DNA of 64,000 bases from a phage: assembly GCA_026683435.1 (NCBI GenBank), contig GCA_026683435.1_4866.1, one strand, 5' to 3'. Within the stretch, counting starts at the first letter, position 1; each line of letters starts with the position of its first letter. This document shows positions 459-15,220 of this stretch, in pieces. The position numbers and the translations under genes are program-made. The notes below the pieces were generated by a model. It saw only the letters and a program-made list of their open reading frames with translations, was not told where the DNA came from and made no database searches.

Positions 459-500
459 AACCGCCCTTCCGTTATTGGGAGGGCGGTCTCCGTTTTATTA
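459..500 (+). terminator. putative intrinsic terminator
   Basis: Stem ACCGCCCT/AGGGCGGT followed by T-rich CTCCGTTTTATTA, between the stop at 424 and the RBS of the next gene. Confidence 0.4.
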
Positions 501-519
501 CAGATTAGGAGTGTTTGCA

Positions 520-3500
520 ATGCCGAGAGAAGATGCGGCGCAGTTTAACGGTACGCTCAGTACCGCTACTTACCCGAACCGTTATTCGGCGGTCATTCCC
601 GTCGAAGCACCGTTCTATCGCATCGGGTTAACGTTAACCGTTACCGATAAAACAACCGGAACCAAACGCAAGTTAATAGAAGGTCTCGATTATTTCTTAG
701 GACATTACTTCCAGGAATTAGCCGAGGCTGAGAACGATGCAATATACGGCAGCATAATGCTGCTGAACGCCACAGAGGTAGAATACGAGTTACTGTCGGT
801 TGGTCGACAGTATCGCATCCCTGCTTCTGAAATCGGCAAGTATCTGGTTAAGACAGATATGAAAGACCCGCGTAACTGCGATTGGTCTGAGCTGATGAAA
901 TATCCGCCGATTATCTCGCCAATCGACCCGCCAAAAGACCTCGAAGAAGCGATTCTTCACGATGAAATCGTAAAGGCGTTGGAAGATATCCGTCTGGGTA
1001 TTTTAGAGCGCGCCCACGAGCTGGATGAGGCTTTTGCCGAAGTTACCGATTTGATTTATCAGAACGGTAAGCAGGTGTTTGATGACGAAATGTATCAACA
1101 CCACCTGATTAAAAATGCACATGGTTACACCTGCGGTGACATTGGCGCTCTCCCGGTACTCGGCAAAGCCGTAGATGCGACTAAGGCATTCGGACGTACC
1201 CTGGCAGAGCTAGTGACGTTAATGTCTACCAGCGGCATCCAACAGAAACACGTTGACATGCTTCTGGATAATACCCTGGGTGATTTACTGGGCCGTATGC
1301 GTGTTCTGAATAACGACGCGATTACGTTCCAAACAACGTCTGGTCACGTTATCAGCATGAAGGGTGAGAAGTTCATCATCACCTCGACAAAACCGCTGGT
1401 ATTAAAAGCTGACCAGGATAACAACGAACCGGGCATCGCTACGGAGTTCAGTGCTGGTCTGAACACGCTTTGGGTTCACTCGGGTAAAGCAGGTGACAAG
1501 TGGGGCGCTTATGATGCAGGTGTGCTTGCACCTGTGTATAACAGCGTGTATCTCGTTACGCCGGATATGGTTAAGATGTACTTGACCTCGGTGAAGATAC
1601 TTCCAGCAAACGCCTACTTCAAGTCCAGCGACACGTTGAAGATTTACGGCTCTGGTAAAGAAACAAACAAACTTTACATGAATGCGGAGCTGCCTGCAGC
1701 AACCACAACTGTGCAGGGTTTGTTTGCGATTACTAACCTTTCGGCGTCCGCTGCAGCATCCACAGCGATTTCCCAAAAAGCTGTTACTGACTTGAAGAAC
1801 AAACTCGACGGATATGCGGACGACACGTATACAGTCAACGGTAAAGGGTTTGTGTTAGACGAAAACGGTCAAATGCATTTAACCTTAACCGCGTCGGATT
1901 TCGGTATTGAGAAGATGAACAATACCGGGCCGCTGGAGAAACCGGTTACTAACGCGTTGCGCACCGTTCTATCAGGCAAAGCGCTTACAACGCACACCCA
2001 CACCATTGCCGATCTCGATAACGTGCCGTACGCATCCACGTCTGTTACAGGTTTGGCTAAACTGTGGGATGCTATTGACACCACAACAGATAAGATGGTT
2101 ACTGCCCGTCAGGGTTTCTTGCTCGAACAAAAGATCGGTACACTGAACGACAAGATTGCTACGTTATTACCGGCGTGGACTGTCGGCGGATCATCGTACG
2201 GCAACAATAACTTCTTGCCTATACCTGTCCAGGGGAACTACGAAGGGTATACCAAAAACCAAACCTGGCAGAAAGGTTTGGCGCGTTACGAGTCTGGTAA
2301 GGTTTACTCGCTCCGTAACGGTTCTAACGGGAACCCACCTGGTGACTGGGCTATCTATTACGCCTATGCTGATGTGTCGCCAAGCAATACGCTGGAAAAT
2401 ATGCAGCAGACGTCCGTACGTTATCGACCCGCTGGAATGTCGGCGTATCCTGGGGTGAATCTGGTTGCTATTGTGATTACCGGTACCGATGCAATGATCT
2501 GCTTAGGCAGTGACGGTGCGTACTACTTGGTCATCTTCGATGGGACGATTGACCATGCAAAACATCATCGTGTTGTTAAAGTGGTGTTGGGTGATTACAA
2601 GAACGGTAATGGTGCGGGCACAGTAACGACAGCACCGTGGGCTCCAAACGCTTCTACAGACGATTTGATTGTTTGTAATGAACGTGTCTACCTGTTGCGT
2701 ACGGTGCTTACCTCCGGTAACTATTTCGTGAGTATGCGTAGCATCGCACTCAACGAACTTAATCCGGGTGGTAGCAACACGTTTGTGGCGGATGCGTTAA
2801 CAGGCGGGATATTAACGTCGGGTGAAAACGTTTATCTGCGACAGGGACAGAAACGTGCACCTTCCGATGCGCTCCCAGCACCAGTTACACAGATCTACGC
2901 AGACGCGTTAGCGAAGTGGAACAATGCAACCAACTTTGTACATGGTCCTGAGTGTAATCACGCGATTGGTGTTGATGGGCTGAGCTTTCGTGTTGGTTTA
3001 ACGCCAACGGTTTGGTTTGCTTCTACTACAGGGCAAACTATTAACTTTAAACAATGGGTGTCAAGCTTTGTTGTCGACTGTAGCGCATTAACGGTAACGC
3101 TGGAAGGTGCTGATCGATTCCCTATTGTGGCTGATCTTACCACGGTTCGTTATAACGGTGGTACTGAGATTGGGATTCCAAGCCGGAAGTGGGGCGAAGG
3201 TCAAGCTAATAACCGAACCTTTGCAACATCGCAAGACAAGTATATCGTTTCGCAAGGACATGCAGGCGATCGCGACCTAATGCCGATTGTCACGATTACC
3301 ACGTTAGACGACGGTGTGAGTTGGTACGAGTACCTGTCGTGCGACTACAACTTCACTGCCAGAAGGTTTAGTGCGGTAACGTTAAACCAAGGTCGTGGTT
3401 CTATCTACGAGCTGGGTATGGCGTATCCACTGACTCTGGGAGCGAATTCCAGACTTATCTGGTTGTCACAGCCACGTTCCCGTTTGGCAATTGAGGTTGA

Positions 3501-5703
3501 GTTTGATCCGAACACCACTTACTCAGGTAAAGCGGGGTATGGCCCAACTAACAATCGACGTGTAGTGGATTCTACCACGTACGAGAATCTGTCGCAGATG
3601 TGCCACATTGTTACACCGGCGTCGCCTGGTACAGAGTTAAACGGCTGGTATTGCACAGGACCAGAAACATTCCCTTACCACAACGTTTCTGGCACTTTCA
3701 CGATTCATGCCGATCGGTTGACGCTGTCACAAGCCGAATGGGATAAGATGAAGCAGATGATCATCGACGGTGCACCGGCAGGCGCTGCGAATGGTTATGC
3801 TTCGGAATTTATCCTTGCCGCAAATAACGCAGGAAAGGCATTGTTCTCCGTTTGGTTCATCGGCATTGGTACGGCCACACCGCTCACGTTAGCACAAGTA
3901 GCATGTACGCGTACTGTGAACAACGTTAACGTGTTGGATATCTACTACTTTACACTGAAACCAACAATCAGCAACGGGCAGGTAACATTCCCCGCAGCGA
4001 TATTGGCTTTGTTTGACTTCTATAACAACCTCGACTATGACTTGAACTATGCTACGTTGGGAGAGATAACGGGAGGAAAAACACGCCGGCCGGGACAACC
4101 TACCATGGTGTCGGTAGATGGTACGCAGTTCGGGTTGTATCTTCCACACACGTTAACCTTGCGCCAAATTGGCGACTTGGGTGCGCTTAACTACGCTGTT
4201 GGTCTTACGTTGTCTAATGGTACCTGGACGCGTTCTTCTGCTCCACACGGCGTTGGACGTATGGCACCGTCACACACTCCAGTCAGTCCAGCTTATCTGG
4301 CACATCGCGATCAAGTGATGTTACACAACTCATCTCTCGACTACGTCTATTGTGGTGGTATCGCAACGTCGTCGAGAGATTTTGTCGCGGCTCCTAATTT
4401 TAGTGGCCCGACTGAATCGGTTGTCATTGCTGGTGTGGAAACAGCTGAAGGTTGGCTGGTATATGTGACTGAGGAAGTTGACCTGCGTTTCGGCTCGAGC
4501 ACTTATAAGCTGCCTACGTGGTATATTGACCTCAGCGCAGCATTTCCAACAAACCATCAGAACCGGACATTCTACCTGCACGCCAAGGTAGAAAATGGTA
4601 CACCGAAGTACGTAATGGACGTGATTCAACATCCAGACACTGAAACGGAACTCTATATCGGGTATGTTAAAACGGGCTCGTCGCGAGTCGTCGAGACTAA
4701 CGTCGAACATGCTAAGCGATTAGGGGCGGTGAAACAACTGTTGGAACATGCGGCGGTTGAGAATAAGCATGATGTGGAAGTGGGAAGGGACGCAGCAACG
4801 GGCAGACTGGCACCATTGCGTAAAGAAGCGATGGGTCCTTTGTCGATCGATGCTACGAAAGGCTATCTGGATAGTCAGTTGCTTTATACCGTATCTGACG
4901 CACAGCGTCGCGGTAAACCGATGGTCTCCAAACGTTTCGAAGGCTTGAAAACTTTGCCGGCGTTTACTCAGGCAAACAAGTCGGGGGCGTTTTGGAAACA
5001 TCCTACAACAATTGCGACGGTAACGGCCGATGAGAACGGTGAAGCGGCATCGTTGGGAATGGAGTGGGTAGGTATCCCTACGCCTGCTTTCTCTCCGACC
5101 TCAGGAACGATGATAGTGGTGATACAAAGTAAATTCGTCGTCCCAGGTACACCGGGAGTAGAAACGACCTTTAATGTTCACGTTGCCCCATGGGAGGCGG
5201 TGGACGGCTTTTTCTACAACATCGAGGCGGAAGGTACGGATGTTAACATTGACGAAAATCCAGAAGTGTTATTGCCGTCACCACATACCGTGCACCACAA
5301 ACAGCACTCTCTGCCAGCAGGCGTGCCGTGCACCTTTACATTTGTCGCGGCGGTAAGTTCTTCAGCGCTCGAAACAGCTAACCAGCATATTTGCTCTTGG
5401 CTTTTCACGGACGCTGGGGGTCTACCAATCACCACCGATCTTTCGGATAGTAAGATTCAAATCTTACCAGCGGCGGGAGAGACCAACGGCACACCAGTTG
5501 TTCTGAACAGTCGTAGCTACACGTTTACGAATGTGACAGGTGCAATCCCGGTTGTTACCACGGGCGCTCAGGGTTTATTCCCACCACCGATCGTGGCGTG
5601 GGATGGCGATGATCTTACGTTAACGATTGCGCACGATTGGGTGAACGAGAGAGGATGGCAACAGCCTGATATTATCCAGGTCAATCTTATGTTCCGTACC
5701 TAA
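520..5703 (+). CDS. large tail-fibre-like virion protein (about 1727 aa)
   Basis: Uninterrupted 5.2-kb ORF. AGGAG lies 8 nt upstream of ATG 520; the ORF-track start 475 is an upstream TTG inside the terminator hairpin. Gly/Thr/Asn/Ser-rich with an 'ASTSVTGLAKL' fibre-type motif. Function inferred from composition and size. Confidence 0.7.
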   Translation: MPREDAAQFNGTLSTATYPNRYSAVIPVEAPFYRIGLTLTVTDKTTGTKRKLIEGLDYFLGHYFQELAEAENDAIYGSIMLLNATEVEYELLSVGRQYRIPASEIGKYLVKTDMKDPRNCDWSELMKYPPIISPIDPPKDLEEAILHDEIVKALEDIRLGILERAHELDEAFAEVTDLIYQNGKQVFDDEMYQHHLIKNAHGYTCGDIGALPVLGKAVDATKAFGRTLAELVTLMSTSGIQQKHVDMLLDNTLGDLLGRMRVLNNDAITFQTTSGHVISMKGEKFIITSTKPLVLKADQDNNEPGIATEFSAGLNTLWVHSGKAGDKWGAYDAGVLAPVYNSVYLVTPDMVKMYLTSVKILPANAYFKSSDTLKIYGSGKETNKLYMNAELPAATTTVQGLFAITNLSASAAASTAISQKAVTDLKNKLDGYADDTYTVNGKGFVLDENGQMHLTLTASDFGIEKMNNTGPLEKPVTNALRTVLSGKALTTHTHTIADLDNVPYASTSVTGLAKLWDAIDTTTDKMVTARQGFLLEQKIGTLNDKIATLLPAWTVGGSSYGNNNFLPIPVQGNYEGYTKNQTWQKGLARYESGKVYSLRNGSNGNPPGDWAIYYAYADVSPSNTLENMQQTSVRYRPAGMSAYPGVNLVAIVITGTDAMICLGSDGAYYLVIFDGTIDHAKHHRVVKVVLGDYKNGNGAGTVTTAPWAPNASTDDLIVCNERVYLLRTVLTSGNYFVSMRSIALNELNPGGSNTFVADALTGGILTSGENVYLRQGQKRAPSDALPAPVTQIYADALAKWNNATNFVHGPECNHAIGVDGLSFRVGLTPTVWFASTTGQTINFKQWVSSFVVDCSALTVTLEGADRFPIVADLTTVRYNGGTEIGIPSRKWGEGQANNRTFATSQDKYIVSQGHAGDRDLMPIVTITTLDDGVSWYEYLSCDYNFTARRFSAVTLNQGRGSIYELGMAYPLTLGANSRLIWLSQPRSRLAIEVEFDPNTTYSGKAGYGPTNNRRVVDSTTYENLSQMCHIVTPASPGTELNGWYCTGPETFPYHNVSGTFTIHADRLTLSQAEWDKMKQMIIDGAPAGAANGYASEFILAANNAGKALFSVWFIGIGTATPLTLAQVACTRTVNNVNVLDIYYFTLKPTISNGQVTFPAAILALFDFYNNLDYDLNYATLGEITGGKTRRPGQPTMVSVDGTQFGLYLPHTLTLRQIGDLGALNYAVGLTLSNGTWTRSSAPHGVGRMAPSHTPVSPAYLAHRDQVMLHNSSLDYVYCGGIATSSRDFVAAPNFSGPTESVVIAGVETAEGWLVYVTEEVDLRFGSSTYKLPTWYIDLSAAFPTNHQNRTFYLHAKVENGTPKYVMDVIQHPDTETELYIGYVKTGSSRVVETNVEHAKRLGAVKQLLEHAAVENKHDVEVGRDAATGRLAPLRKEAMGPLSIDATKGYLDSQLLYTVSDAQRRGKPMVSKRFEGLKTLPAFTQANKSGAFWKHPTTIATVTADENGEAASLGMEWVGIPTPAFSPTSGTMIVVIQSKFVVPGTPGVETTFNVHVAPWEAVDGFFYNIEAEGTDVNIDENPEVLLPSPHTVHHKQHSLPAGVPCTFTFVAAVSSSALETANQHICSWLFTDAGGLPITTDLSDSKIQILPAAGETNGTPVVLNSRSYTFTNVTGAIPVVTTGAQGLFPPPIVAWDGDDLTLTIAHDWVNERGWQQPDIIQVNLMFRT

Positions 5704-5750
5704 CAGATAGCGCTATGGGGCAAGGAAGCCCCAATCAAAGGAGTTTGGCA

Positions 5751-6953
5751 ATGGCCGAAATCATTCATCAGTACCCGCTCGACCTTACCGGGACATTAAC
5801 GTCGAACGCCGTTACACGGCGTATTACGTTAGGTTCTGGTAAAGTTAACCGGGCTTTTGCTTTTCCTGACGGAGCTTTCTACGCGGATACCTTCCGCTTG
5901 GCAGCTGCGAATAAACCAGGTGTCTACCCGTACAAACGCGGTACAGACTACGAACTGATTTTTGCACATACTGCATATCAGAAAATGACCAAGAACCGTG
6001 AAGTGGTCATGGGTGTGGTGGTAACTAACTCGGCCATTCCTACTGATATCGAAGTCTCTGCGCAAGTCGTTGGTGGTTTTCAGTCTGCGAACGTCGAAGG
6101 CATCCGACAAGCGATTGCGTCGTTGAAAATTGAAGACCGTGTGGTGGACTTCAAGGATCTTCGAAACGTACCCGATACGTTCCCGTCCGCCCCGACGTAT
6201 AAAGACCTTGGCGATATCTACGGTTTTGAGTATATCATTACCGTACTCGCGGGGATTAAAGATGCGATTAACTCCGGCTCTGCAGTACAGCTGGAAGAAA
6301 TTAAAGGTATTCTGGATGGTCTGAAAAACGACTTCCTCGACGCCTTAAATACCCACATCAACGCCGAAGGTAACGTACACAATCTCGACATTCATCAGGT
6401 TAATGGCCTGACGGAGACGGAGATTCGTGCCCTGATTCAAAGTGTACAGACTGCCATTGACGCCACTATCAAAGATATCGGCGACTTAAGAGCAGCAGAC
6501 ACAGCGTTGGGGCAACGCATCGATGCAATTGTGGCTTCGTTAGCCGCGTGGAACGACCAGCTTAACGTGGTTGCTCAAAATTACCAGAAAATGTCGTTAG
6601 CATTAGCTAACCTTAATTCTCTGGTGTTGCAATTACAGAAGATGGTTAACGATCTTCAGTCTGCACTGAATAAAACAAATCAGCGCGTCACGGATCTTGA
6701 GAATCAGGGCAAAGACTTCCAACAGCAAATTGATAACCTGCAAGGACAAATCAACAGTCTTAAAACTCAGGTTGTAAATAACACCAACGCAATTTCGCAG
6801 GCAAACCAGAATCTGGCGAACCATGCGGCTGCGGATAACCCACACCCGAATTACCTCCATAAACAGTATGGCGGTGTTGTGCAGGCTGCTGTTCACGTCA
6901 ACAACAGCCTCACCTCGCGCGACGATGTTCAAGCTGAAGCGGGTACTAAGTAA
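5751..6953 (+). CDS. fibre-associated protein with long C-terminal coiled coil (fibritin- or tail-fibre-like)
   Basis: AAGGAG lies 9 nt upstream of ATG 5751; the ORF-track ATG 5715 has no RBS. C-terminal half is heptad-like and Q/N/L-rich (LQLQKMVNDLQSALNKTNQRVTDLENQ...). Confidence 0.65.
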   Translation: MAEIIHQYPLDLTGTLTSNAVTRRITLGSGKVNRAFAFPDGAFYADTFRLAAANKPGVYPYKRGTDYELIFAHTAYQKMTKNREVVMGVVVTNSAIPTDIEVSAQVVGGFQSANVEGIRQAIASLKIEDRVVDFKDLRNVPDTFPSAPTYKDLGDIYGFEYIITVLAGIKDAINSGSAVQLEEIKGILDGLKNDFLDALNTHINAEGNVHNLDIHQVNGLTETEIRALIQSVQTAIDATIKDIGDLRAADTALGQRIDAIVASLAAWNDQLNVVAQNYQKMSLALANLNSLVLQLQKMVNDLQSALNKTNQRVTDLENQGKDFQQQIDNLQGQINSLKTQVVNNTNAISQANQNLANHAAADNPHPNYLHKQYGGVVQAAVHVNNSLTSRDDVQAEAGTK

Positions 6954-6965
6954 CTTGTTTACGAG

Positions 6966-7007
6966 CCGGACTATGTTTATGGACATAGTCCGCTCGTTCT
7001 ACTTTTT
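6966..7007 (+). terminator. hairpin plus T-run (terminator or attenuator) upstream of the Cys-repeat peptide genes
   Basis: 10-bp perfect stem CGGACTATGT/ACATAGTCCG with a 6-nt loop, followed by TTCTACTTTTTAA. Confidence 0.4.
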
Positions 7008-7018
7008 AAGGAAGCGTA

Positions 7019-7411
7019 ATGGCGATATCTATTAAAGACGTCAGAAACCGCGTCCAGATAGTCGAAGCTAACATGGCGACAGGCCCCCGTATCGACGCGC
7101 AAGTGGCCTCTAAAGCCCATAATGCGGCAGACCGATTTGGGGGTTGGACGAAAGCACAGCTAGATTGCGGCGGGACATGTTCTTGGACGTGCTCTAACGG
7201 TTGCTCGCATGGCTGTTCGAGCTGTTCAGGAAGCTGTTCTGCTTCTTGTATCGGTAGCTGTTCTTCGACGTGTGGCGGTAACTGTTCTGGTTGCTCTGGT
7301 TGTTCTGGTGGTTGCAGTAGTAGCTGTACCGGTAACTGCTCAGGTGGTTGCGGGGGGGCTTGTTCTTCCAATTGTTCCGGAGCCTGCTCCGGTGGCTGTT
7401 CAGGTCGCTAA
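7019..7411 (+). CDS. Cys/Ser/Gly-repeat small protein 1 (130 aa; putative RiPP-like precursor)
   Basis: AAGGAAG RBS. About 50-aa Cys-free N-terminal region conserved with the next two ORFs, then about 80 aa with about 21 Cys mostly as C-S-x-x units. Confidence 0.6.
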   Translation: MAISIKDVRNRVQIVEANMATGPRIDAQVASKAHNAADRFGGWTKAQLDCGGTCSWTCSNGCSHGCSSCSGSCSASCIGSCSSTCGGNCSGCSGCSGGCSSSCTGNCSGGCGGACSSNCSGACSGGCSGR

Positions 7412-7421
7412 GGGGGATTAA

Positions 7422-7826
7422 ATGGCAATTGGATTAAAAGAACTGAATAACCGATTAAACACGATCGATGCAAACGCTTTAAAGAACACCACGAATGTGC
7501 AAAACTACATTCGCAATAAAGCTACGAATAACGCCGACTTGTTCGCAGGTCAAGGTCGTTCGCACTACGACTGTGGTGGTACGTGTTCTTTTAGCTGCTC
7601 AAGTTGCTCTGGCGGCTGCACAGGGTCTGCGACAGGTGGTTGTGGGTCGACTTGTTCCGCAAACTGTGTATCAGGCTGTAGCAGCAGCTGCACGGGCTGT
7701 AGCTCTTCGTGCTCTGGTGGTTGTAGCGGCACGTGCACAGGCAGCTGTTCTGGGGGTTGTGGTAAATCCTGCTCCGCAAACTGCTCAGGTGCGTGCTCTG
7801 GTGGTTGTTCAGGTCCTAACTCCTAA
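7422..7826 (+). CDS. Cys/Ser/Gly-repeat small protein 2 (134 aa; putative RiPP-like precursor)
   Basis: AGGGGG RBS. Paralogous to 7019-7411 with the same leader-like N-terminus (MAI..K.(V/L)(R/N)NR(V/L), ..NAAD(R/L)F.G, ...(H)YDCGGTCS) and about 20 Cys in the core. Confidence 0.6.
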   Translation: MAIGLKELNNRLNTIDANALKNTTNVQNYIRNKATNNADLFAGQGRSHYDCGGTCSFSCSSCSGGCTGSATGGCGSTCSANCVSGCSSSCTGCSSSCSGGCSGTCTGSCSGGCGKSCSANCSGACSGGCSGPNS

Positions 7827-7841
7827 CTGACGGAGGCTTAT

Positions 7842-8048
7842 GTGATCAGTCTCAAGACTATTCGAAACCGTCTCGTTACGGTAGAAGGTTACATTACAAC
7901 CGCACAGGCAAACAACTATATTGCTAACCAGGGCACCGTGTCGACCACAAATAACCTGGCTGGCTTACCGCTTTCTCACTATAACTGTAATGGTGGGTGT
8001 AGCTGGTCCTGCAGCGGAAGCTGTAGCCGTGGAGCGGGGAATCGATAA
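7842..8048 (+). CDS. Cys/Ser/Gly-repeat small protein 3 (68 aa; short-core paralogue)
   Basis: GGAGG RBS with a GTG start. Conserved leader-like N-terminus (MISLKTIRNRL...LSHYNCNGGCSWSCSGSCS) and a short core with 4 Cys. Confidence 0.55.
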   Translation: MISLKTIRNRLVTVEGYITTAQANNYIANQGTVSTTNNLAGLPLSHYNCNGGCSWSCSGSCSRGAGNR

Positions 8049-8070
8049 CAGAAAACGTTCGGAGTATTAA

Positions 8071-8958
8071 ATGAAAAACGATTTGCATCTTGCGTATAAA
8101 ACCACATTCAACCACCCGCTGCATCTATCTTCCCCAGATTCAGTGCGTGCACACCTTGCTGACAAAGTCAGACTGATTGCACAGATTCCTGGTGAGTGGC
8201 CAAAGGTTCGTGGTCGCTTCTTGACCGACAAGAAGAACTACACCGTAGAAAATACGTTTAAGATCCGTGATATGGTTGCAGAGGCCATCGTTATCTTTAA
8301 CGGCGATGGTAACTCTCGTGGCGTGTTAGTCGACGGTAAGTATTTCTTCAGTGAAGGGATTTTGAACAACAGCGTCGATTTAGAACTGATGTTTACACCG
8401 TTTGACGAACTTGAAGCAAAACCGATGGCGCGCCGTTGGTGGAGTCCGGACTATCTGGGCTCGTTCCCTTACTACTTTGTACTGGTACCTGCCGATACGG
8501 AAACGTATTTCGACACCGAACCATACATCGATATCGAGGGGTATAAAGAACTCGGCATCACCCGTTTAGCGGACATGATGGCGTATAGCTATAAGTTCGT
8601 GTGGGATAAAAAGCGTTCTGTCTGGTATGCGCTGACTGACGATTTTGAAATCACCAAACGTATTCGTAAGCCGTGGATGCAACACCTGGTTCAAACCCGA
8701 TATGGGGATTACCCGGCGACAGAAGCGGACTTGAGTAAGCTGGTAAGCTTCCTCTTAACAAAGGTGGATTTAACGAAAGAAGAAGCAGAAGCTGTTTCTG
8801 AGATTCGTGGTCGTTCGGTAACGTTGGCCGATTTGAAACGTCTGAACGAAAGACACGCCGACCTGAACAAAATTTTAGCTGCCTATCACGACCCGATGTT
8901 ACTGGTGCCTGGCGCTAATGTAGACGAAGATCCTTTATTCGCCATTGATTATATTTAA
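8071..8958 (+). CDS. hypothetical protein (295 aa) in the rSAM cassette
   Basis: GGAG RBS. Co-oriented and tightly packed between the peptide genes and the rSAM genes. No motif recognised. Confidence 0.65.
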   Translation: MKNDLHLAYKTTFNHPLHLSSPDSVRAHLADKVRLIAQIPGEWPKVRGRFLTDKKNYTVENTFKIRDMVAEAIVIFNGDGNSRGVLVDGKYFFSEGILNNSVDLELMFTPFDELEAKPMARRWWSPDYLGSFPYYFVLVPADTETYFDTEPYIDIEGYKELGITRLADMMAYSYKFVWDKKRSVWYALTDDFEITKRIRKPWMQHLVQTRYGDYPATEADLSKLVSFLLTKVDLTKEEAEAVSEIRGRSVTLADLKRLNERHADLNKILAAYHDPMLLVPGANVDEDPLFAIDYI

Positions 8959-8980
8959 AAATATACTGGAGCAACCTGCA

Positions 8981-9895
8981 ATGACAGATCAAGTAGAATC
9001 CAGGATCTCGTCTGAACTGTACGACAAACCGTCAATTCTGTCGGTTGTCGCAACTTCTAAGTGTAACTTAGACTGTAGCTTCTGTGGAGGGGCTTATTAC
9101 ATGGATAGAGAAGATACTTCTCGTGAGTTTCAACGTGAAGAGATTCTCTCGATTTTAGAGAAGAATCCGGATATCGGTGAGATTCATTGGACGGGCGGTG
9201 AGCCGCTGTTAGCGCAGCGTAAGATTGAAGACTTCGTGAACGAGTTGAAGGAGTCTCATCCTAACCTCCGTCATCACATGTACACCAACGGTTTAAAGAT
9301 GCGTAAATCACATCTGCCGTTGCTGAAACAGTTCGACCTTATCTTTGTGTCCATTGACGGCTACAAGAAGTCGGAACGTCCGTTTATGAACTTTGTAAAC
9401 GGTGGTAATCACGAAGCGCTGGAAGTGCTGTACGAGCTGGACAACTATTACACCTGGGGTGTGATGACGCGTGACCAGTTAGGCGATAAACGCTGGTACG
9501 AAGATTTCATCGAGCTGCACCGAGCAATCTATCATTACCGTCCAGGTGGTGTGTCGTTGTTGTTTGATGCGATGATGCCGAAACCGTTATCGCCAGACCA
9601 CGTCATGAACTTCATGTACGGGTATTGGAAAATACTCGACAATATCGAACGCCTTAACATGCAGAACGATTCTGAATGTGGGCTTGCGATCAGTAAAATG
9701 TTCGATACCGAGTGCAACACGTGCAGTGAAGTGCTGTGGCTTAACGCCGACGGTACGCAGGAGCAAATTCAGAACGCCCCAGAGATATTGGAAGTCGGCT
9801 GTAATCGCCTGGCGCGTTCTATCGGCGTTGATGCGTATAACTACATCAACCGTGTAATTTCTGCTAAGCGTAAACGGGCGGCGAACAATGAGTAA
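8981..9895 (+). CDS. radical SAM enzyme (about 304 aa)
   Basis: CNLDCSFC (CX3CX2C) near the N-terminus, GGEPLL glycine motif, and C-terminal Cys cluster (C-x11-C-x2-C). ATG 8981 has a GGAG RBS; the ORF-track start 8945 is a TTG overlapping the previous gene. Confidence 0.8.
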   Translation: MTDQVESRISSELYDKPSILSVVATSKCNLDCSFCGGAYYMDREDTSREFQREEILSILEKNPDIGEIHWTGGEPLLAQRKIEDFVNELKESHPNLRHHMYTNGLKMRKSHLPLLKQFDLIFVSIDGYKKSERPFMNFVNGGNHEALEVLYELDNYYTWGVMTRDQLGDKRWYEDFIELHRAIYHYRPGGVSLLFDAMMPKPLSPDHVMNFMYGYWKILDNIERLNMQNDSECGLAISKMFDTECNTCSEVLWLNADGTQEQIQNAPEILEVGCNRLARSIGVDAYNYINRVISAKRKRAANNE

Positions 9896-11216
9896 TAGCG
9901 AACAGCAAATCCAGTACACACCACGCACGTATCAGGTTGTGACTAACCTGTCATGTAACCTGGACTGCGAATACTGCTACGAGCGTAAATATCCGCGTAA
10001 CAACAAAGTAGCAGACGTGATTGATTTTATCCACGCTTGTTTCGAGCGTGATAAAGATATCCCGAACGTTGAAGTCATCATCGATATCATCGGTGGTGAG
10101 CCGTTCATGCAGCCTAAACTTCTTTTGGCGGCCTTTGAAACCGCAGAGAAGTTATGCGCAGAACACAATCGCCCGTATATGTTCAGTATCTCCACGAACG
10201 GTACGCTTCTGGACCGTCCGCTGAACAAAGAAATTATCGAGCGCTGGAAAGACAAACTGTCTATTGGGGTCTCCATCGATGGTTTACCTGAAGTCCATGA
10301 CAAATATCGTATCTTTACCACGACGCGTGAAGGGTCGTACGAAGCTGCGGTACGCGGTTACAATTATCTGAAGAGTGTTGGCATCGCTGAGCTGGGCGTA
10401 AAGGCGACGTTTACGATCGATACATTGCCGCACTATGCCGCCAGCATGAAATCGTTAATTGACATGTCCGGCGGTGGTACCATCTCTGGTAACGTAACGT
10501 ACGAAGATATCCTGCCGCGCCATATGGCGTTGGATATCGCGAACCAGATGATGGACGTGATGGACTACTGGATTGAGAAGGGTCTGCACACCAACCCGCG
10601 TAACACGATTACACACATCATCCCGGATGGCCTGAACTTTATGGCAACTTGGGACCCGGATTGGCGTGACAAACTCTTACATGACGACTCTGTTCGTCTC
10701 GACCCAGAACGCCTGAAACCGTACTGCGGTACGTTGACGCACATGACCTGTCTCGGCTTTGATCGCAAGATTTACGGTTGTAACCGTTTCATGTCCACGG
10801 TAACTTCCCGCTCTGCTGTAGCAGAACTGGTCGGTCGTGAGTTTGTGAGCCTGGACGGTGGTAAGCTGTTAGAAGAGATTCAAACGCAGTACACCAACTA
10901 CCCAGAAACCTGTTTAGGGTGTCCGATGAAACACAGCTGCGGTAGCTGCGCAGCAGCATCGTACGAAAACGGTGAAGGTACACTGGAAGACCGTAAAGCG
11001 TATCATGCCGAGCGTCGTCAGTGTGGTTGGACTACTGCGAAGCTGATGGCGGCGGAATATTGGTATCAGAAAACTGGTACGACCCGCGCATCAGATTTGC
11101 ATGATAAATCCATGTGCTATTGTTCACGTTGTGTACGCCAACGTGCTGAAGCAGAAAAATTACAAAACGGAGCCCAGAATGAAGTCAATACTGATTCACA
11201 ATTTTACGAAGCGTAA
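9888..11216 (+). CDS. radical SAM enzyme with SPASM-type C-terminal domain (anSME-like RiPP maturase fold)
   Basis: CNLDCEYC (CX3CX2C), GGEPFM, STNGTLL and SIDG motifs, and C-terminal CLGCPMKHSCGSC plus further Cys. Start overlaps the stop of the previous rSAM gene (ATGAGTAA). Confidence 0.8.
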   Translation: MSNSEQQIQYTPRTYQVVTNLSCNLDCEYCYERKYPRNNKVADVIDFIHACFERDKDIPNVEVIIDIIGGEPFMQPKLLLAAFETAEKLCAEHNRPYMFSISTNGTLLDRPLNKEIIERWKDKLSIGVSIDGLPEVHDKYRIFTTTREGSYEAAVRGYNYLKSVGIAELGVKATFTIDTLPHYAASMKSLIDMSGGGTISGNVTYEDILPRHMALDIANQMMDVMDYWIEKGLHTNPRNTITHIIPDGLNFMATWDPDWRDKLLHDDSVRLDPERLKPYCGTLTHMTCLGFDRKIYGCNRFMSTVTSRSAVAELVGREFVSLDGGKLLEEIQTQYTNYPETCLGCPMKHSCGSCAAASYENGEGTLEDRKAYHAERRQCGWTTAKLMAAEYWYQKTGTTRASDLHDKSMCYCSRCVRQRAEAEKLQNGAQNEVNTDSQFYEA

Positions 11217-11745
11217 ACTGCACTTGGTCGATCGCTTCCTGCGCAAAAGCAAGCTGTACAATGTGCACGCAATTGTGGCAGGGGAAGACTTCACTGATGA
11301 AATCCAAAGCCTGTTGATTAAATACGGGCTGAACGTGATGATCCCGGTCTACTGCGTTGAGAAAGGACACGAGTCTGTCGCGGAAATCGAAAAGCGCAAT
11401 CCTGGCTTTGAGAAGCGACTGCTCGCATACCCACGCCACAAAATCGAACTGCTACGTCATTCCATCGATGAAGCCAGTCCTGAAAGTTTAGTGGCTTTGG
11501 GCTTGTCTTTCCCGCGGATGCGTATTCGTAACTTACGCTCCAATAATCCGGTCGACGCGTATTACACAGAGCGTCAAATCTTCGAAGAACACCTGCTCCC
11601 GCAGTTGGAAGAAGAAGAGCAACACAACATTTCTGTGTTGTGGGCCGGTAACCTCGATCAGGACTTCCAGATGCTGGACTTCGGTTTGTTGTTAGAACTT
11701 GGCCTGATTGAGGAGGACGAATGTCTGTTACTGACAAAAGCTTAA
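11179..11745 (+). CDS. hypothetical protein (about 188 aa), cassette accessory candidate
   Basis: ACGGAG upstream of ATG 11179. The ORF-track start 11101 lies deep inside the rSAM gene. Confidence 0.55.
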   Translation: MKSILIHNFTKRKLHLVDRFLRKSKLYNVHAIVAGEDFTDEIQSLLIKYGLNVMIPVYCVEKGHESVAEIEKRNPGFEKRLLAYPRHKIELLRHSIDEASPESLVALGLSFPRMRIRNLRSNNPVDAYYTERQIFEEHLLPQLEEEEQHNISVLWAGNLDQDFQMLDFGLLLELGLIEEDECLLLTKA

Positions 11746-12392
11746 CGAACGAAGAGATCCGCGCCCGTTATTTCCAGCGTGATTTGCCGATTGATCGTCA
11801 CGGTAATTTCATGGAACGAATCGGTGCGCAGGATCAGGGTCGTACCGGATTTTGTGCATTACTCCATTACCATCTCATCGAAGGGATGTCTGATAAAGAA
11901 GCCCTGGCACGTATGAAGCTGTATGAGATGTCGGAGATTGAAGCTAACTTCACATTGAAACGCACGAAAGAGTTTATTGCTAATGTGCTGGAGATTGACC
12001 TCGACGAAATTCGCGGGAATCTGAAATCCACCGCACGTTACATTTACGAAGACGTGCAGAAGATGCTGTTGGAACTTGACCACCGCTACGAAGATGAGCG
12101 TCATGGTTATATCGAGTTTGAAGGTAGCCACTTTCAAGCCGATGAATCGTCGCGCGCCATCCTCGGTCAATACATTCAGGCAGATACCGCACCAGAATAC
12201 TGGCTCGATACGCTGAATACTAAGCACAGTCCGTTTACAGTAGACCAATGTAAAGCGTTGTTGGGCGCTATTGTTGCACGCGACCAGGTGTTGCACTCAG
12301 CAATGGCAGATAACAAACGCCAAATCCGTGAGTTAGCTGAAAAGCGCGATTACACCGGTTTAAAAACATTGTCCGAATCACTCGGCATGTAA
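11721..12392 (+). CDS. hypothetical protein (223 aa), last gene of the rightward block
   Basis: GAGGAGGA RBS. Overlaps the previous gene by 25 nt and is followed by a strong terminator. Confidence 0.65.
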   Translation: MSVTDKSLTNEEIRARYFQRDLPIDRHGNFMERIGAQDQGRTGFCALLHYHLIEGMSDKEALARMKLYEMSEIEANFTLKRTKEFIANVLEIDLDEIRGNLKSTARYIYEDVQKMLLELDHRYEDERHGYIEFEGSHFQADESSRAILGQYIQADTAPEYWLDTLNTKHSPFTVDQCKALLGAIVARDQVLHSAMADNKRQIRELAEKRDYTGLKTLSESLGM

Positions 12393-12406
12393 GCAAAGAA
12401 AATAAA

Positions 12407-12450
12407 GGCCCTACCTCCCCGAAGGGAGGTAGGTACCTTTTATTTATTTC
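12407..12450. terminator. bidirectional intrinsic terminator at the strand-polarity switch
   Basis: Stem CTACCTCCC/GGGAGGTAG with CGAA loop, flanked by T-runs on both strands, between convergent genes. Confidence 0.65.
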
Positions 12451-12472
12451 TTAGAAACTACTAATTGCTCTG

Positions 12473-13021
12473 TTACACGACAGTGTGACCTTCGCCGCCG
12501 AATCCGCCCAGTTCACCGTTGGTGGTGCTCAGGTCAGTTTTAACGATTGGCTGCGTTACAGTATAAACTGCAAGGCTGGCAGGTTGGTATTTAATGTGGC
12601 CTTCTTTCACCTTAACAGTGATGACTTTCTCACCACTGCTGCCGTCCTCGCGTGTAATGGTGAGTTCAGACAACGCAAACGCATCTTCCGTTTCACCGTC
12701 GCCAAATAGTTCTGCGTTGACAAAAGCAAGCACTTCTTCATCGGTATCCCATTCTGCCTGGTCAGCGGTAACTGCTTTCGCACCGATGATGTTCGATGAA
12801 TCGAGGCGGGTATAATGCAGCTCTTTCTCGCCAGTAAAGTTAGCGGATTCCGCGGTGGCAGTGATGGTGAGTTTGGAGTTGCGAGTGTCTCCAGAATCTG
12901 CTGGTGAATAGTCAGCAACAGCGCCGAATGTAACGTCAGCAGAAGTTAACGGACTAGACAGTCCGCTGTTTGCAGCATTAAACAGCGCGACGAGTTGGTC
13001 TTTTGCAGAGATGACTGCCAT
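12473..13021 (-). CDS. small member of the fibre-associated paralogue family (182 aa)
   Basis: AAGGAAA RBS. N-terminal module with 'LHYTRLDSSNI' (family Y-x-R-L motif) and C-terminal 'NGELGGF' shared with the 470-aa paralogues. Confidence 0.65.
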   Translation of the reverse strand: MAVISAKDQLVALFNAANSGLSSPLTSADVTFGAVADYSPADSGDTRNSKLTITATAESANFTGEKELHYTRLDSSNIIGAKAVTADQAEWDTDEEVLAFVNAELFGDGETEDAFALSELTITREDGSSGEKVITVKVKEGHIKYQPASLAVYTVTQPIVKTDLSTTNGELGGFGGEGHTVV

Positions 13022-13144
13022 GGTTGTTTCCTTATAGTAGGTTTGTGGTGCATACTAAATCGTTCTAAAAACAACATAGTGGGCTTAATATGACAGTAAA
13101 GTTGGCTGTTAAACGAGAAAGTTTTTACCACTGAAAGGTACTCT

Positions 13145-13636
13145 ATGAAACGTCTATTTATCGTATTCGCGATTATAAACCTGTTGGCCGGTTGTGTTCA
13201 GTCGCCAAGCAACATAGGACAATTTAGCGCCACACCAGTAAAGAATCACGACTTGGTGATTTATACATGCACAGGGACGCAGGAGAAGTTTGTAGACTAC
13301 CGTCCGGTACTGGACAACCTACAAATGATGCCGCGGTCAGTAACAGTAATGGATGTGGGTGCAAACTGGGTAGCAGCGTGGGACGGTGGCAAACTAGAGT
13401 CACCGATGATGTTTAAAGATACAATTGGCAAAATCGACGGGAATGTTAACACCACCACAGGTGAGCGTTATTACCGTATTAATAAAACCGTAAACGATAG
13501 CCCCACTTATTCTTTTTCGGATGTGAACCCGTATACCGGCGAAGGTAAAGGGATGACATTCTTTCGCTGCAGCAGCGGGTTTATCGGTGAAGTTCCTACT
13601 CCGATTACGATTGTTCCGTTAGAAGAAAATAAATAG
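13145..13636 (+). CDS. putative lipoprotein (163 aa)
   Basis: N-terminal signal peptide with lipobox LLAGC. Followed by a strong hairpin terminator. Confidence 0.65.
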   Translation: MKRLFIVFAIINLLAGCVQSPSNIGQFSATPVKNHDLVIYTCTGTQEKFVDYRPVLDNLQMMPRSVTVMDVGANWVAAWDGGKLESPMMFKDTIGKIDGNVNTTTGERYYRINKTVNDSPTYSFSDVNPYTGEGKGMTFFRCSSGFIGEVPTPITIVPLEENK

Positions 13637-14286: not shown

Positions 14287-14928
14287 TTAAGGGGCAGTCA
14301 GGAACGCACGTTTGATATTCAAATACTGCACGTTTACCGGTTGCCCATTAGTAATGTCAACACGTTCGTGTTCAGGAATCGCTAACGTACGCGACGTTCT
14401 AAAGAACAGGTAGTTGCGATTATAGGACAACGTCTTTTCTACCGGCCGGCTATAAACCACTTTAGAGTTATCGTCTACATAGGACGGCCAACCAAACTCG
14501 TGAACGGCACGGTAGAAGGACTTACGAATAAAGGTGTCAACGCCTAATGCCTCCATGATGCGTAAGAACATCAGGTCAGCGAATGTTTTGTCGCAAGCAC
14601 GAGATAGATTACCTTCAACGGTGTCAGGGTAAAAGCCTACCGATGAACGTTTCTGGTAAAACAAATCATGCACACAAGCGGCAGCAGCCCAAGGCCCATC
14701 CGGATGCAGGATAGGACGTAACGCTTCTGGAATGCTTGCCAGGTCCGTCACAAATCCTTTCGGTACCGTTACCCATAACGGGGTATCCGGATGCACACCT
14801 GCTAATGCTACCATCGCATCCATTCCGGCGTGTTCACGATAGAGGCTGCGCAACGTAAACTCGAAATGGAAATCATCCGTGAGGATAAACCACGGCTTCT
14901 CTAACAACTTATACTTAAGTGCTTCCAT
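14287..14928 (-). CDS. DUF1353-like protein (213 aa)
   Basis: 'PKGFVTDLASIP' and 'CVHDLFY' motifs match my recollection of DUF1353. Confidence 0.5.
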   Translation of the reverse strand: MEALKYKLLEKPWFILTDDFHFEFTLRSLYREHAGMDAMVALAGVHPDTPLWVTVPKGFVTDLASIPEALRPILHPDGPWAAAACVHDLFYQKRSSVGFYPDTVEGNLSRACDKTFADLMFLRIMEALGVDTFIRKSFYRAVHEFGWPSYVDDNSKVVYSRPVEKTLSYNRNYLFFRTSRTLAIPEHERVDITNGQPVNVQYLNIKRAFLTAP

Positions 14929-15118: not shown

Positions 15119-15220
15119 TTAGGCGGAGTTGGACGGTGGGTCATTACGTTTTCTCCTTGCGGCAAAAACAAGGGCGCGCCAGATAGCTTTCATTAAGGCA
15201 GCAAACCAATTCTGTTTCAT
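15119..15220 (-). CDS. possible small ORF (33 aa) coupled to the endolysin stop
   Basis: ATGA overlap with the endolysin stop. MKQNWFAALMKAIWRALVFAARRKRNDPPSNSA has a hydrophobic N-terminus then a basic stretch. Hand-derived. Confidence 0.3.
   Translation of the reverse strand: MKQNWFAALMKAIWRALVFAARRKRNDPPSNSA

What the first reader, a model, noticed from the sequence alone, without database searches (positions are those of the whole stretch)
8071..12392. Three unassigned proteins co-transcribed with the rSAM genes; no recognisable protease or exporter
Seen: ORFs 8071-8958, 11179-11745 and 11721-12392 are tightly packed in the same operon and I recognise no motif in them. No peptidase or ABC-transporter signature is visible anywhere in the cassette. 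Inference: these may supply leader recognition (RRE-like), chaperone or proteolytic functions in a non-canonical form, or the product is not exported but incorporated into the virion.
Basis: inference. Interest (0 to 1): 0.5.

Follow-up and report, generated by a model that had tools for sequence, protein, structure and literature searches.

The report
Helper proteins for cross-linked phage tail-fibre tips
The three unassigned genes are real, conserved helper proteins that are not part of the virus particle; they belong to a giant-phage cassette in which two radical-SAM enzymes most likely cross-link cysteine-repeat tail-fibre tip proteins, which would explain why no protease or exporter is present.

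Summary
The window is a Salmonella giant phage almost identical to SPN3US. The three ORFs are SPN3US gp165 (8071-8958), gp162 (11179-11745) and gp161 (11721-12392). All three are real, tightly packed and conserved in synteny down to about 30-40% identity. None was detected in the published SPN3US virion proteome.

- **gp161** carries DUF4376, the C-terminal domain of experimentally shown tail-fibre assembly chaperones. It occurs in only two lineages.
- **gp165** has a confident predicted structure with no match in PDB or the viral structure library, and no RRE fold. In 11 phage lineages its relatives sit directly after a Cys-X-X-X-repeat gene and next to a radical-SAM maturase.
- **gp162** is a (beta/alpha)6 partial barrel whose best fold matches are radical-SAM cores. 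It lacks the CX3CX2C motif and always directly follows rSAM1.

In several lineages the CXXX repeat is the C-terminal tip of a bona fide tail-fibre protein. The substrate is therefore most likely a structural fibre tip rather than an exported peptide, so no protease or exporter is needed. I propose gp165 as a fibre-tip chaperone/adaptor, gp162 as a non-catalytic partner of rSAM1, and gp161 as a fibre chaperone. These roles are inferred, not shown. No cross-link chemistry has been demonstrated.

The parts
8071..8958 (+). SPN3US gp165 homologue (295 aa). Founding member of a phage-only protein family with an unmatched predicted fold. Proposed chaperone/adaptor for the CXXX-repeat fibre tip.
11179..11745 (+). 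SPN3US gp162 homologue (188 aa). A (beta/alpha)6 partial barrel without an Fe-S motif. Proposed non-catalytic partner of rSAM1.
11721..12392 (+). SPN3US gp161 homologue (223 aa) with a C-terminal DUF4376 domain. Proposed intermolecular tail-fibre assembly chaperone.
   Evidence: PF14301 E 5.6e-9, above the gathering cut-off. All full-length family members carry PF14301. DUF4376 proteins are required for fibre function in Alteromonas phages and a Campylobacter prophage. Present only in the SPN3US-like group and L034. Absent from the virion proteome.
8981..9895 (+). Radical SAM enzyme 2 (SPN3US gp164), 304 aa. CX3CX2C plus three conserved C-terminal Cys.
   Evidence: PF04055 E 1e-15. Cys conservation.
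9888..11216 (+). Radical SAM/SPASM enzyme 1 (SPN3US gp163), 442 aa. Closest to the CXXX-repeat-target maturase family and to PapB.
   Evidence: TIGR04115 E 3e-36 and PapB E 1e-32, both below the curated cut-offs. CX3CX2C, eight SPASM-region Cys and a C-terminal CxCxxC are all invariant.
7019..7411 (+). CXXX-repeat protein A (130 aa, 21 Cys). Probable substrate and fibre-tip module. Not annotated in SPN3US.
   Evidence: phrog_6085. Weak TIGR04114 hit. The Cys count of 21 is kept in 13 of 14 diverged loci examined (15 in the most distant, L030). Junction motif shared with a prophage fibre.
7422..7826 (+). CXXX-repeat protein B (134 aa, 20 Cys). The SPN3US 'gp166' is annotated in the wrong frame over this gene.
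7842..8048 (+). Short paralogue C (68 aa, 4 Cys, GTG start) of the CXXX proteins.
   Evidence: phrog_6085 E 2.8e-25. Conserved in related loci.
5715..6953 (+). SPN3US gp167, a coiled-coil virion (non-head) structural protein. Candidate fibre shaft.
   Evidence: Detected in virions, not flagged as head. phrog_2163 and tail-fibre PHROG hits. The L034 homologue is a 617-aa repeat-rich protein that looks fibre-like by eye (not tested against a profile library).
475..5703 (+). SPN3US gp168, a 1742-aa tail/baseplate fibre candidate at the head of the gene string.
   Evidence: Tail protein in proteome and mutant work.
6961..6997 (+). Stable hairpin followed by a T-run between gp167 and the CXXX genes. 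Possible attenuator.
   Evidence: -23.7 kcal/mol, z -5.4, 0 of 200 shuffles as stable.
12410..12433 (.). Bidirectional intrinsic-terminator-like hairpin closing the gene string.
   Evidence: 10-bp stem with 7 GC pairs and T-runs on both strands.

Best explanation
The three ORFs encode accessory proteins, none of them detected in virions, of a tail-fibre-tip maturation cassette.

**Substrates.** The substrates are three small proteins, each with an N-terminal domain followed by a Cys-X-X-X repeat. They correspond to the C-terminal tips of tail fibres in other phages.

**Enzymes.** Two radical-SAM enzymes modify the repeat: rSAM1, of the SPASM type and nearest the CXXX-repeat/PapB thioether-forming maturases, and the smaller rSAM2. 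The modification is most likely a ladder of thioether cross-links. This chemistry is inferred, not shown.

**gp165 (8071-8958).** This is the universal non-enzymatic partner. I propose that it holds the unfolded Cys-rich tip and presents it to the enzymes. It would be functionally analogous to a discrete RRE such as PqqD, or to a tail-fibre chaperone, but it has a different fold that matches nothing in the libraries searched. Its conserved C-terminal half would contact the enzymes and its variable N-terminal half the lineage-specific substrate domain.

**gp162 (11179-11745).** This is a cluster-less (beta/alpha)6 barrel that is genetically and translationally coupled to rSAM1. It probably acts as a non-catalytic subunit of rSAM1.

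**gp161 (11721-12392).** This is a DUF4376 tail-fibre assembly chaperone that helps fold or oligomerise the fibre. It is not detected in the mature particle.

**Why no protease or exporter.** The product stays in the cytoplasm and is built into the virion, so neither a leader protease nor an exporter is needed.
For: Shown by tool results:
- Identity with SPN3US and the gene mapping.
- The ten-gene string is syntenic in more than 20 loci.
- gp161, gp162, gp163, gp164 and gp165 are absent from the 86-protein virion proteome, while gp167-gp173 are present.
- DUF4376 in gp161 scores above the Pfam cut-off. The literature shows DUF4376 proteins acting as fibre chaperones.
- rSAM1 is nearest TIGR04115 and PapB.
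- gp165 relatives lie adjacent to a CXXX gene and to rSAM1-like genes in all 11 lineages with enough flank: the SPN3US group, L030, L032, L034, L035, L036, L038, L039, L040, L041 and L042.
- CXXX repeats form the C-terminus of proteins that hit 'tail fiber protein' PHROGs (E down to 2e-40) and phrog_6085.
- The junction motif NA..LAGQ..YY.C.GCSWTC is shared between the window's proteins and a prophage fibre.
- Neither rSAM has room for an N-terminal RRE, because the CX3CX2C motif starts at residues 23 and 28.
- gp162 always follows rSAM1, even after rearrangement in L038, and its fold resembles rSAM cores.
- No peptidase or ABC family is found in the window's cassette. In the other lineages the Pfam hits listed with the called genes include no ABC transporter or leader-type peptidase. 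The only peptidase-named hits are Peptidase_S74 in the L038 fibre genes and NLPC_P60 in the L032 tail module.

Inferred: the division of labour among the three proteins and the thioether chemistry.
Against: - There is no direct evidence of any cross-link, of any protein-protein contact, or that the CXXX proteins are in SPN3US virions. They were not in the annotation used for the proteome searches, and the Cys-rich region has no tryptic sites.
- In L030 the cassette sits among non-structural genes (Acb2/Tad1-like, GIY-YIG, Cpn60), not beside fibre genes.
- gp161 lies about 3.7 kb downstream of the nearest candidate fibre gene, not immediately after it as is typical for fibre chaperones.
- The correlation between the variable N-terminal half of gp165 and the substrate type is confounded by overall phylogenetic distance.
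- rSAM1 and the CXXX proteins score below the curated NCBIfam cut-offs.
Confidence: 0.55

Rival explanations
1. Classical RiPP. The small Cys-rich proteins are precursors of a released bioactive peptide such as a bacteriocin, signal or anti-defence factor. The three proteins provide non-canonical leader recognition or processing, and release occurs by host proteases and phage lysis.
For: The precursors are small, each with a leader-like N-terminal domain of about 50 residues. The rSAM1 family otherwise matures peptides. In L030 the cassette lies among non-structural and anti-defence-type genes.
Against: The same repeat is fused to proteins that match tail-fibre families in at least four lineages. 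The cassette lies inside or beside fibre or tail modules in most lineages. No leader-type peptidase or transporter appears in any lineage. The N-terminal domain ends in a motif shared with the prophage fibre in L032.
Confidence: 0.1
2. All three proteins are ordinary fibre or baseplate assembly factors for gp167 and gp168. They have nothing to do with the radical-SAM chemistry and are merely neighbours.
For: gp161 is a DUF4376 chaperone-type protein and tracks with gp167-like genes (SPN3US group and L034). gp165-like genes occupy the position directly after a fibre gene that fibre chaperones usually occupy.
Against: gp165 and gp162 homologues accompany the rSAM genes in L030, where no gp167 or gp168 homologue is nearby. 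gp162 moves together with rSAM1 in L038. gp165-like genes were found only next to CXXX plus rSAM genes, never next to fibres that lack the repeat (11 of 11 lineages).
Confidence: 0.13
3. gp165 or gp162 is a cryptic enzyme. Examples would be a protease that removes the N-terminal domain, a dehydratase, or a third modification enzyme, with an active site that current profiles do not recognise.
For: Within the SPN3US-like group both families have many invariant polar residues, for example K72 R73 N74 E78 K88 R120 D167 in gp162 and R197 R199 K200 D220 E238 in gp165. gp162 has an enzyme-type barrel fold.
Against: Across the wider families these residues are not kept. The broad gp165 alignment has no invariant column, and the extended gp162 alignment keeps only K2, S66, P85, K88 and L171. 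There is no fold or profile match to any hydrolase or other enzyme class beyond generic barrels.
Confidence: 0.12
4. The CXXX regions are metal-binding or disulfide-rich modules comparable to metallothionein. The rSAM enzymes act on something else, and the three proteins serve metal or cluster delivery.
For: The composition (Cys with Gly, Ser and Thr) resembles metallothionein-like sequences.
Against: CXXX, gp165 and rSAM1-like genes are strictly adjacent in 11 lineages. rSAM1 and the gut-phage enzyme match the CXXX-repeat-target maturase model; the gut-phage enzyme matches over its full length with E 2e-89. None of the three proteins shows a metal-chaperone family hit.
Confidence: 0.07

Closest known systems
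CXXX-repeat peptide modification system (NCBIfam TIGR04114 repeat target, TIGR04115 radical SAM/SPASM maturase, TIGR04116 associated protein). Defined in silico; I know of no published chemistry (own knowledge, and nothing found in the held library).
   Same: A Cys-every-fourth-residue repeat protein is encoded next to a SPASM-type radical-SAM enzyme. rSAM1's best NCBIfam hit is TIGR04115 (E 3e-36), and the Cys-rich ORFs weakly hit TIGR04114. A gut phage (MT835573) carries a near-threshold TIGR04115 enzyme (300 bits against 350) beside a CXXX-tipped protein inside a tail module.
   Different: Scores are below the curated cut-offs. There are two rSAM enzymes instead of one. The accessory proteins gp165, gp162 and gp161 show no similarity to TIGR04116 or to the 202-aa and 94-aa proteins of the gut-phage system. 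The system is embedded in a giant-phage fibre gene string.
PapB / ranthipeptide (freyrasin) maturation and other thioether-forming rSAM/SPASM enzymes (CteB, SCIFF maturase)
   Same: rSAM1 aligns with the PapB model over residues 22-357 (E 1e-32) and keeps the full SPASM cysteine set. The substrate has regularly spaced Cys residues.
   Different: The substrate is a protein of about 130 aa, or a fibre tip, with about 20 Cys and no Asp/Glu acceptors at fixed spacing. There is no leader peptidase or exporter. The product is probably structural. The chemistry is untested.
PqqD/PqqE and other discrete RRE partner proteins of RiPP radical-SAM enzymes
   Same: A small separate protein is encoded between the substrate and the rSAM genes. 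Both rSAMs lack an N-terminal recognition domain, so a stand-alone recognition partner is plausible.
[quoted passage not shown]
   Same: gp161 has the DUF4376 domain at its C-terminus with a variable N-terminal part, is encoded in a fibre gene string, and is absent from purified virions.
   Different: It is not directly downstream of a fibre gene; five genes intervene. Its cognate fibre is unknown. There is no sequence hit to any solved chaperone structure.
Radical SAM superfamily core fold (for example PFL-AE domain 3CAN, anSME 4K36, CteB 5WGG, SuiB 5V1Q)

Membership tests
RRE / PqqD-like recognition element (PF05402) | Sequence match to PqqD/RRE profiles | tested here: not met
   No Pfam or NCBIfam hit for any of the three proteins. 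None among the 38 gp165-family or 22 gp162-family members at E up to 10.
RRE / PqqD-like recognition element (PF05402) | Winged helix-turn-helix fold of about 90 residues (three strands plus three helices) | tested here: not met
DUF4376 (PF14301) tail-fibre assembly chaperones | Pfam PF14301 match above the gathering threshold, located at the C-terminus | tested here: met
   gp161: 36.9 bits against a cut-off of 25, E 5.6e-9, residues 121-205 of 223. PF14301 is precomputed for all full-length relatives.
DUF4376 (PF14301) tail-fibre assembly chaperones | Gene immediately downstream of its cognate tail-fibre gene | tested here: inconclusive
   gp161 is the last gene of the fibre string but lies five genes (about 3.7 kb) after the last CXXX gene and about 4.8 kb after gp167. 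It co-occurs with gp167-like genes in the SPN3US group and L034 only.
DUF4376 (PF14301) tail-fibre assembly chaperones | Required for folding or function of the fibre | not testable with these tools
   Absence from the 86-protein SPN3US virion proteome is compatible with a chaperone that is not retained in the mature particle. The requirement itself needs genetics or co-expression.
Radical SAM superfamily (PF04055), considered for gp162 | CX3CX2C [4Fe-4S]-binding motif after strand beta-1 | tested here: not met
   The beta1-alpha1 loop reads HNFTKR. C182, near the C-terminus, is invariant within the SPN3US-like phages only.
Radical SAM superfamily (PF04055), considered for gp162 | Profile match to Radical_SAM or to the neighbouring rSAM genes | tested here: not met
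   No PF04055 hit in 22 members. hhalign probability at most 0.8% against rSAM1, rSAM2 and the third rSAMs of other lineages.
Radical SAM superfamily (PF04055), considered for gp162 | Partial (beta/alpha)6 TIM-barrel fold | tested here: inconclusive
CXXX-repeat modification system (TIGR04114/04115/04116) | rSAM enzyme scoring above the TIGR04115 cut-off | tested here: not met
   rSAM1 scores 125.6 bits against a cut-off of 350, although this is its best family (E 3e-36).
CXXX-repeat modification system (TIGR04114/04115/04116) | Target protein with the TIGR04114 repeat | tested here: inconclusive
   18.0 and 17.1 bits against a cut-off of 20. The Cys-every-fourth pattern is obvious by eye and conserved.
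CXXX-repeat modification system (TIGR04114/04115/04116) | TIGR04116-type associated protein | tested here: not met
   No NCBIfam hit at E up to 1 for gp165, gp162 or gp161.
Canonical exported RiPP cluster | Leader peptidase (for example a C39 or S8 family member) and/or an ABC exporter in the cluster | tested here: not met
   None among the window's ORFs from 475 to 13636 in Pfam, NCBIfam or PHROGs. For the related loci the evidence is partial: the Pfam hits listed with called genes and the L029 scan include no ABC transporter or leader-type peptidase. The only peptidase-named hits there are Peptidase_S74 in the L038 fibre genes and NLPC_P60 in the L032 tail module.

The most novel reading that the evidence does not exclude
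Phages use RiPP-type radical-SAM chemistry to build a structural element. A multi-component maturase installs a ladder of covalent cross-links in a Cys-X-X-X-repeat receptor-binding tip of the tail fibre. The maturase consists of rSAM1 with the cluster-less barrel gp162, rSAM2, and gp165. gp165 would be a new class of recognition or chaperone protein, independent of the RRE and with a fold that matched nothing in PDB or the viral structure library. The system would be spread across at least 11 phage lineages, from lambda-like prophages to giant myoviruses.
Probability: 0.35. Interest if true: 0.85.

Novelty: new variant of a known kind. Interest (0 to 1): 0.62.

Why it matters
If this reading is right, radical-SAM peptide maturation is not only a route to secreted natural products. 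It would also be a way for viruses to harden or shape the tip of a tail fibre, the part that decides host range.

That would give a concrete role to two 'putative radical SAM' genes that have sat unexplained in SPN3US-like genomes since 2011. It would add three missing genes to the reference annotation. It would also define a new partner-protein family, the gp165 family, that marks such systems in metagenomes.

The question is directly testable, because SPN3US has an amber-mutant genetic system and published virion proteomics. It also bears on engineering phage host range and on the discovery of new cross-link chemistries.

Tried and rejected
- **Sequence searches of the three proteins.** PDB searches with single sequences and with family profiles gave nothing below E 0.2. 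Pfam on every family member of gp165 and gp162 at E up to 10 gave only scattered noise. PADLOC gave nothing.
- **gp162 as a decayed rSAM.** hhalign and hmmsearch against rSAM1, rSAM2 and the extra rSAMs of L030, L032, L034 and L035 gave no signal. I had noted that L034 carries an rSAM2 paralogue lacking CX3CX2C. That was an artefact of the called start; the extended ORF has the motif.
- **Bacterial relatives of rSAM1.** One genome-contig scan returned only four distant Saccharibacteria rSAMs at 24-28% identity. The one locus scanned (L025) had no CXXX-type ORF, and the lead was dropped.
- **Gut-phage accessory proteins.** The 202-aa and 94-aa proteins of the gut-phage CXXX system are unrelated to gp165, gp162 and gp161.
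- **gp167 against the prophage CXXX-tipped fibre.** Similarity is only weak (E 0.012), limited to an H..TE.EI-type repeat. I did not rely on it.
- **Numbering trap.** The EC001 'MGA' numbers are shifted by one from the SPN3US locus tags. The abundant head protein 'gp160' of the literature is the minus-strand ORF 12473-13021, not the DUF4376 protein.
- **Literature.** Searches for radical SAM together with SPN3US, jumbo phage, tail fibre, CXXX or the TIGR accessions found no paper on this cassette.

Full report
**What the window is.** The region 7000-12500 is 98-99% identical to Salmonella giant phage SPN3US and its close relatives of the genus Seoulvirus. The window was mapped onto the GenBank record JN641803:

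| Window coordinates | SPN3US gene | Notes |
|---|---|---|
| 475-5703 | gp168 | 1742 aa |
| 5715-6953 | gp167 | |
| 8071-8958 | gp165 | first unassigned ORF |
| 8981-9895 | gp164 | rSAM2 |
| 9888-11216 | gp163 | rSAM1 |
| 11179-11745 | gp162 | second unassigned ORF |
| 11721-12392 | gp161 | third unassigned ORF |
| 12473-13021 (minus strand) | gp160 | abundant head protein |

The three Cys-rich ORFs (7019-7411, 7422-7826, 7842-8048) are not annotated in SPN3US. The annotated 'gp166' is an alternative-frame ORF (7495-7830) lying over the second of them. They are annotated in phage EC001.

**Checking the observation.** The three ORFs exist and each has a good ribosome-binding site.

- They are tightly packed: 22-nt gaps flank gp165, and the next three junctions overlap by 8, 38 and 25 nt.
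- A strong bidirectional terminator follows at 12410-12433, and another sits at 460-487 just before gp168.
- A stable hairpin plus T-run at 6961-6997 (-23.7 kcal/mol, z -5.4) separates gp167 from the Cys-rich genes and may attenuate transcription.
- Each ORF has a family of full-length homologues.
- The whole ten-gene string is syntenic in every one of more than 20 related loci. Identity falls as low as 40% for gp165, 32% for gp162 and 27% for gp161.
- No peptidase or ABC-transporter profile matches any ORF of the cassette.

**Published proteomics.** The SPN3US virion proteome lists 86 proteins (Ali et al. 2017, PMC5694885, Supplementary Table 1). It contains gp167-gp173 (not flagged as head), gp160 and gp157 (head). 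It does not contain gp161, gp162, gp163, gp164, gp165 or the mis-framed gp166.

The three proteins and both enzymes were therefore not detected as virion components. Whether the Cys-rich proteins were searched for is not recorded. They are absent from the GenBank annotation, although the 2023 search database held 273 sequences. Their repeat regions have no tryptic sites, and carbamidomethylation was a fixed modification in the later study.

**gp161 (11721-12392).**
- It matches Pfam DUF4376 above the gathering threshold at residues 121-205. All full-length relatives do as well.
- DUF4376 is the C-terminal domain of intermolecular tail-fibre chaperones. [quoted passage not shown]
- gp161 is the least conserved cassette protein, which I read as typical of fibre-tip chaperones (own knowledge).
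- It occurs only in the SPN3US-like group and in L034.
- Neither the sequence nor the family profile finds any solved structure.

**gp165 (8071-8958).**
- The family alignment gave a confident model (pLDDT 90, pTM 0.85). It has a beta-rich N-terminal half and a helical C-terminal half.
- An exhaustive profile search of 1.84 billion representative proteins found only 50 relatives. The distant ones share the C-terminal half (about residues 160-276), with motifs such as AYSYKF.W and ADY.RLI.FLLSKV.LT.EE.
- No column is invariant and no catalytic-looking residue set survives. This argues for a binding protein rather than an enzyme.

The genomic contexts of the relatives are the most informative evidence. 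In all ten additional lineages where flanking DNA was available, the gp165-like gene has a CXXX-repeat ORF directly upstream and an rSAM1-like gene beside it (L030, L032, L034, L035, L036, L038, L039, L040, L041, L042/43).

**What the substrates are.**
- In L039, L040 and L041 the CXXX repeat is the C-terminal end of proteins of 276-482 aa. Their upstream parts match several PHROG 'tail fiber protein' families (E down to 2e-40), and their C-termini match phrog_6085, the family of the window's Cys-rich ORFs.
- In L032 the repeat ends a 258-aa protein encoded just after the lambda-J-like gene of a siphovirus-type tail module. It carries His-rich repeats that weakly match the 'phage tail repeat' profile (PF12789, E 3e-4, below the cut-off). 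L032 is likely a prophage, because the protein cluster includes a Desulfoluna chromosomal protein.
- In L036 a 69-aa CXXX ORF overlaps the stop codon of a 575-aa tail protein.
- The junction motif NA..LAGQ..YY.C.GCSWTC is shared between the L032 fibre and the window's proteins.
- The Cys counts (21, 20-23 and 4-5) are largely preserved across diverged SPN3US-like phages; the more distant L030 proteins have 15 and 16.
- Independently, a gut phage fragment (MT835573) has a CXXX-tipped protein and a near-threshold TIGR04115 maturase inside a tail module, with unrelated small accessory proteins.

The CXXX repeat is therefore a tail-fibre tip module. In SPN3US-like phages it is encoded as separate small proteins.

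**The enzymes.**
- rSAM1 has the CX3CX2C motif at residues 23-30, a complete SPASM cysteine set and an extra C-terminal CxCxxC. All of these are invariant.
- Its best NCBIfam matches are the CXXX-repeat-target maturase family (E 3e-36) and the ranthipeptide maturase PapB (E 1e-32), both below the curated cut-offs.
- rSAM2 has the CX3CX2C motif at residues 28-35 and three conserved C-terminal Cys.
- Neither enzyme has room for an N-terminal recognition domain, so a separate substrate-presenting protein is plausible.

**gp162 (11179-11745).**
- The model is confident (pLDDT 90.6) and is a (beta/alpha)6 partial barrel.
- It has no CX3CX2C motif. C182 is invariant within the SPN3US-like phages but is not kept in the wider family.
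- It shows no profile similarity to any rSAM.
- The extended family keeps only five positions, which argues against catalysis.
- Homologues occur in the SPN3US-like group, L030, L034 and L038, always immediately after rSAM1. In L038 the rSAM1-gp162 pair has moved upstream of the CXXX genes yet stays adjacent with abutting stop and start. This points to a functional pairing with rSAM1.

**Core versus accessory genes.** CXXX protein, gp165, rSAM2-like and rSAM1-like genes are found in nearly all lineages, although rSAM2 is not separately resolved in some short loci. gp162 is found in four lineages and gp161 in two. In L030 the core plus gp162 sits away from fibre genes and lacks gp161. gp161 is therefore tied to the fibre context, while gp165 and gp162 are tied to the enzymes.

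**Most likely mechanism (inferred).**
1. The CXXX tip proteins are made in the cytoplasm.
2. gp165 binds them and presents the unfolded repeat to rSAM2 and to the rSAM1-gp162 pair.
3. The enzymes install covalent cross-links. Thioethers are likely by analogy with PapB-type enzymes.
4. gp161 assists folding or oligomerisation and attachment to the fibre, with gp167 as the candidate shaft.
5. The helpers are not detected in purified virions, so they are presumably left behind.

The product never leaves the cell before lysis and keeps its N-terminal domain as an attachment module. No leader protease or exporter is therefore needed.

**Comparison with known systems.** The cassette works like the in-silico-defined CXXX-repeat rSAM system and like PapB-type ranthipeptide maturation with a discrete partner, as PqqD is to PqqE. 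It fails the curated thresholds and lacks the TIGR04116 partner, so it is not a member by those tests. gp161 is a member of DUF4376. gp165 belongs to no described family and matches no structure in PDB or BFVD. gp162 resembles, but is not demonstrably, a radical-SAM core. No paper in the held library describes radical-SAM modification of phage tail fibres or this cassette.

**Verdict.** The system-level reading is well supported by comparative genomics. The individual roles and the chemistry remain to be shown.

Noticed in passing
window 7019-8048 (and 7495-7830): The SPN3US reference records (JN641803, NC_027402) lack all three Cys-rich ORFs. They annotate 'gp166' in the wrong reading frame over the second one. 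Proteome searches built on that annotation may have missed these proteins.
   Followed up: yes
window 6961-6997: Very stable hairpin (-23.7 kcal/mol, z -5.4) followed by a T-run, between gp167 and the first Cys-rich gene. It may be an attenuator that sets different expression levels for the fibre genes and the maturation cassette.
   Followed up: partly
window 12473-13021 (- strand): SPN3US gp160 carries DUF7941 (E 1e-11). It was reported as an abundant head protein (paralogue family B, more than 300 copies). A 2026 preprint on phage Goslar proposes that DUF7941 proteins form a fibre cloud at the baseplate. The two localisations seem to conflict.
   Followed up: no
window 13145-13636 (+ strand): A 163-aa ORF begins MKRLFIVFAIINLLAGC, which looks like a lipoprotein signal peptide with a lipobox. 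It has no Pfam hit. It might be a superinfection-exclusion or lysis-related lipoprotein.
   Followed up: no
L029 (MT835573.1) 6325-11110: An unrelated gut phage fragment carries a fibre-like gene, a 193-aa CXXX-tipped protein (passes the TIGR04114 cut-off), 202-aa and 94-aa unknown proteins, and a near-threshold TIGR04115 rSAM/SPASM enzyme, all inside a tail module. This is a second, independent accessory set for the same theme.
   Followed up: partly
L032 15410-15952 and L035 6997-7818: In two distant lineages a protein with thrombospondin type-1 repeat hits (TSP1_ADAMTS, TSP_1) is encoded just downstream of the rSAM genes. That domain is unusual in phages, and this may be another Cys-rich fibre component.
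   Followed up: no
L032 11621-12526; L035 5715-6890; L034 6583-7560; L030 3684-4868: Several lineages carry a third radical-SAM gene in or near the cassette. The enzyme complement varies between two and three.
   Followed up: partly
L034 3629-5482 versus window 5715-6953: The gp167 homologue in L034 is 617 aa. It has repeated NPHGTTKAQVGLGSV units and a C-terminal extension that, by eye, resembles an S74-type intramolecular chaperone (not tested against the Pfam model). The window's gp167 ends about where that extension begins (…SLTSRDDVQAEAGTK).
   Followed up: no
Phage records LR535903-LR535913 (SPFM5, 6, 7, 8, 9, 10, 12, 14, 15, 20): These SPFM records match the region only as about 40 short pieces and encode fragmented versions of the cassette proteins. 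This looks like indel-rich assemblies rather than biology.
   Followed up: no
window 14287-14928 (- strand) and 15217-15870 (- strand): gp157 has DUF1353 and is called 'tail assembly chaperone' in RefSeq, yet it was flagged as a head protein in the virion proteome. It lies beside a GH108/PG_binding_3 endolysin. The same DUF1353-endolysin pair follows the cassette in L034.
   Followed up: no
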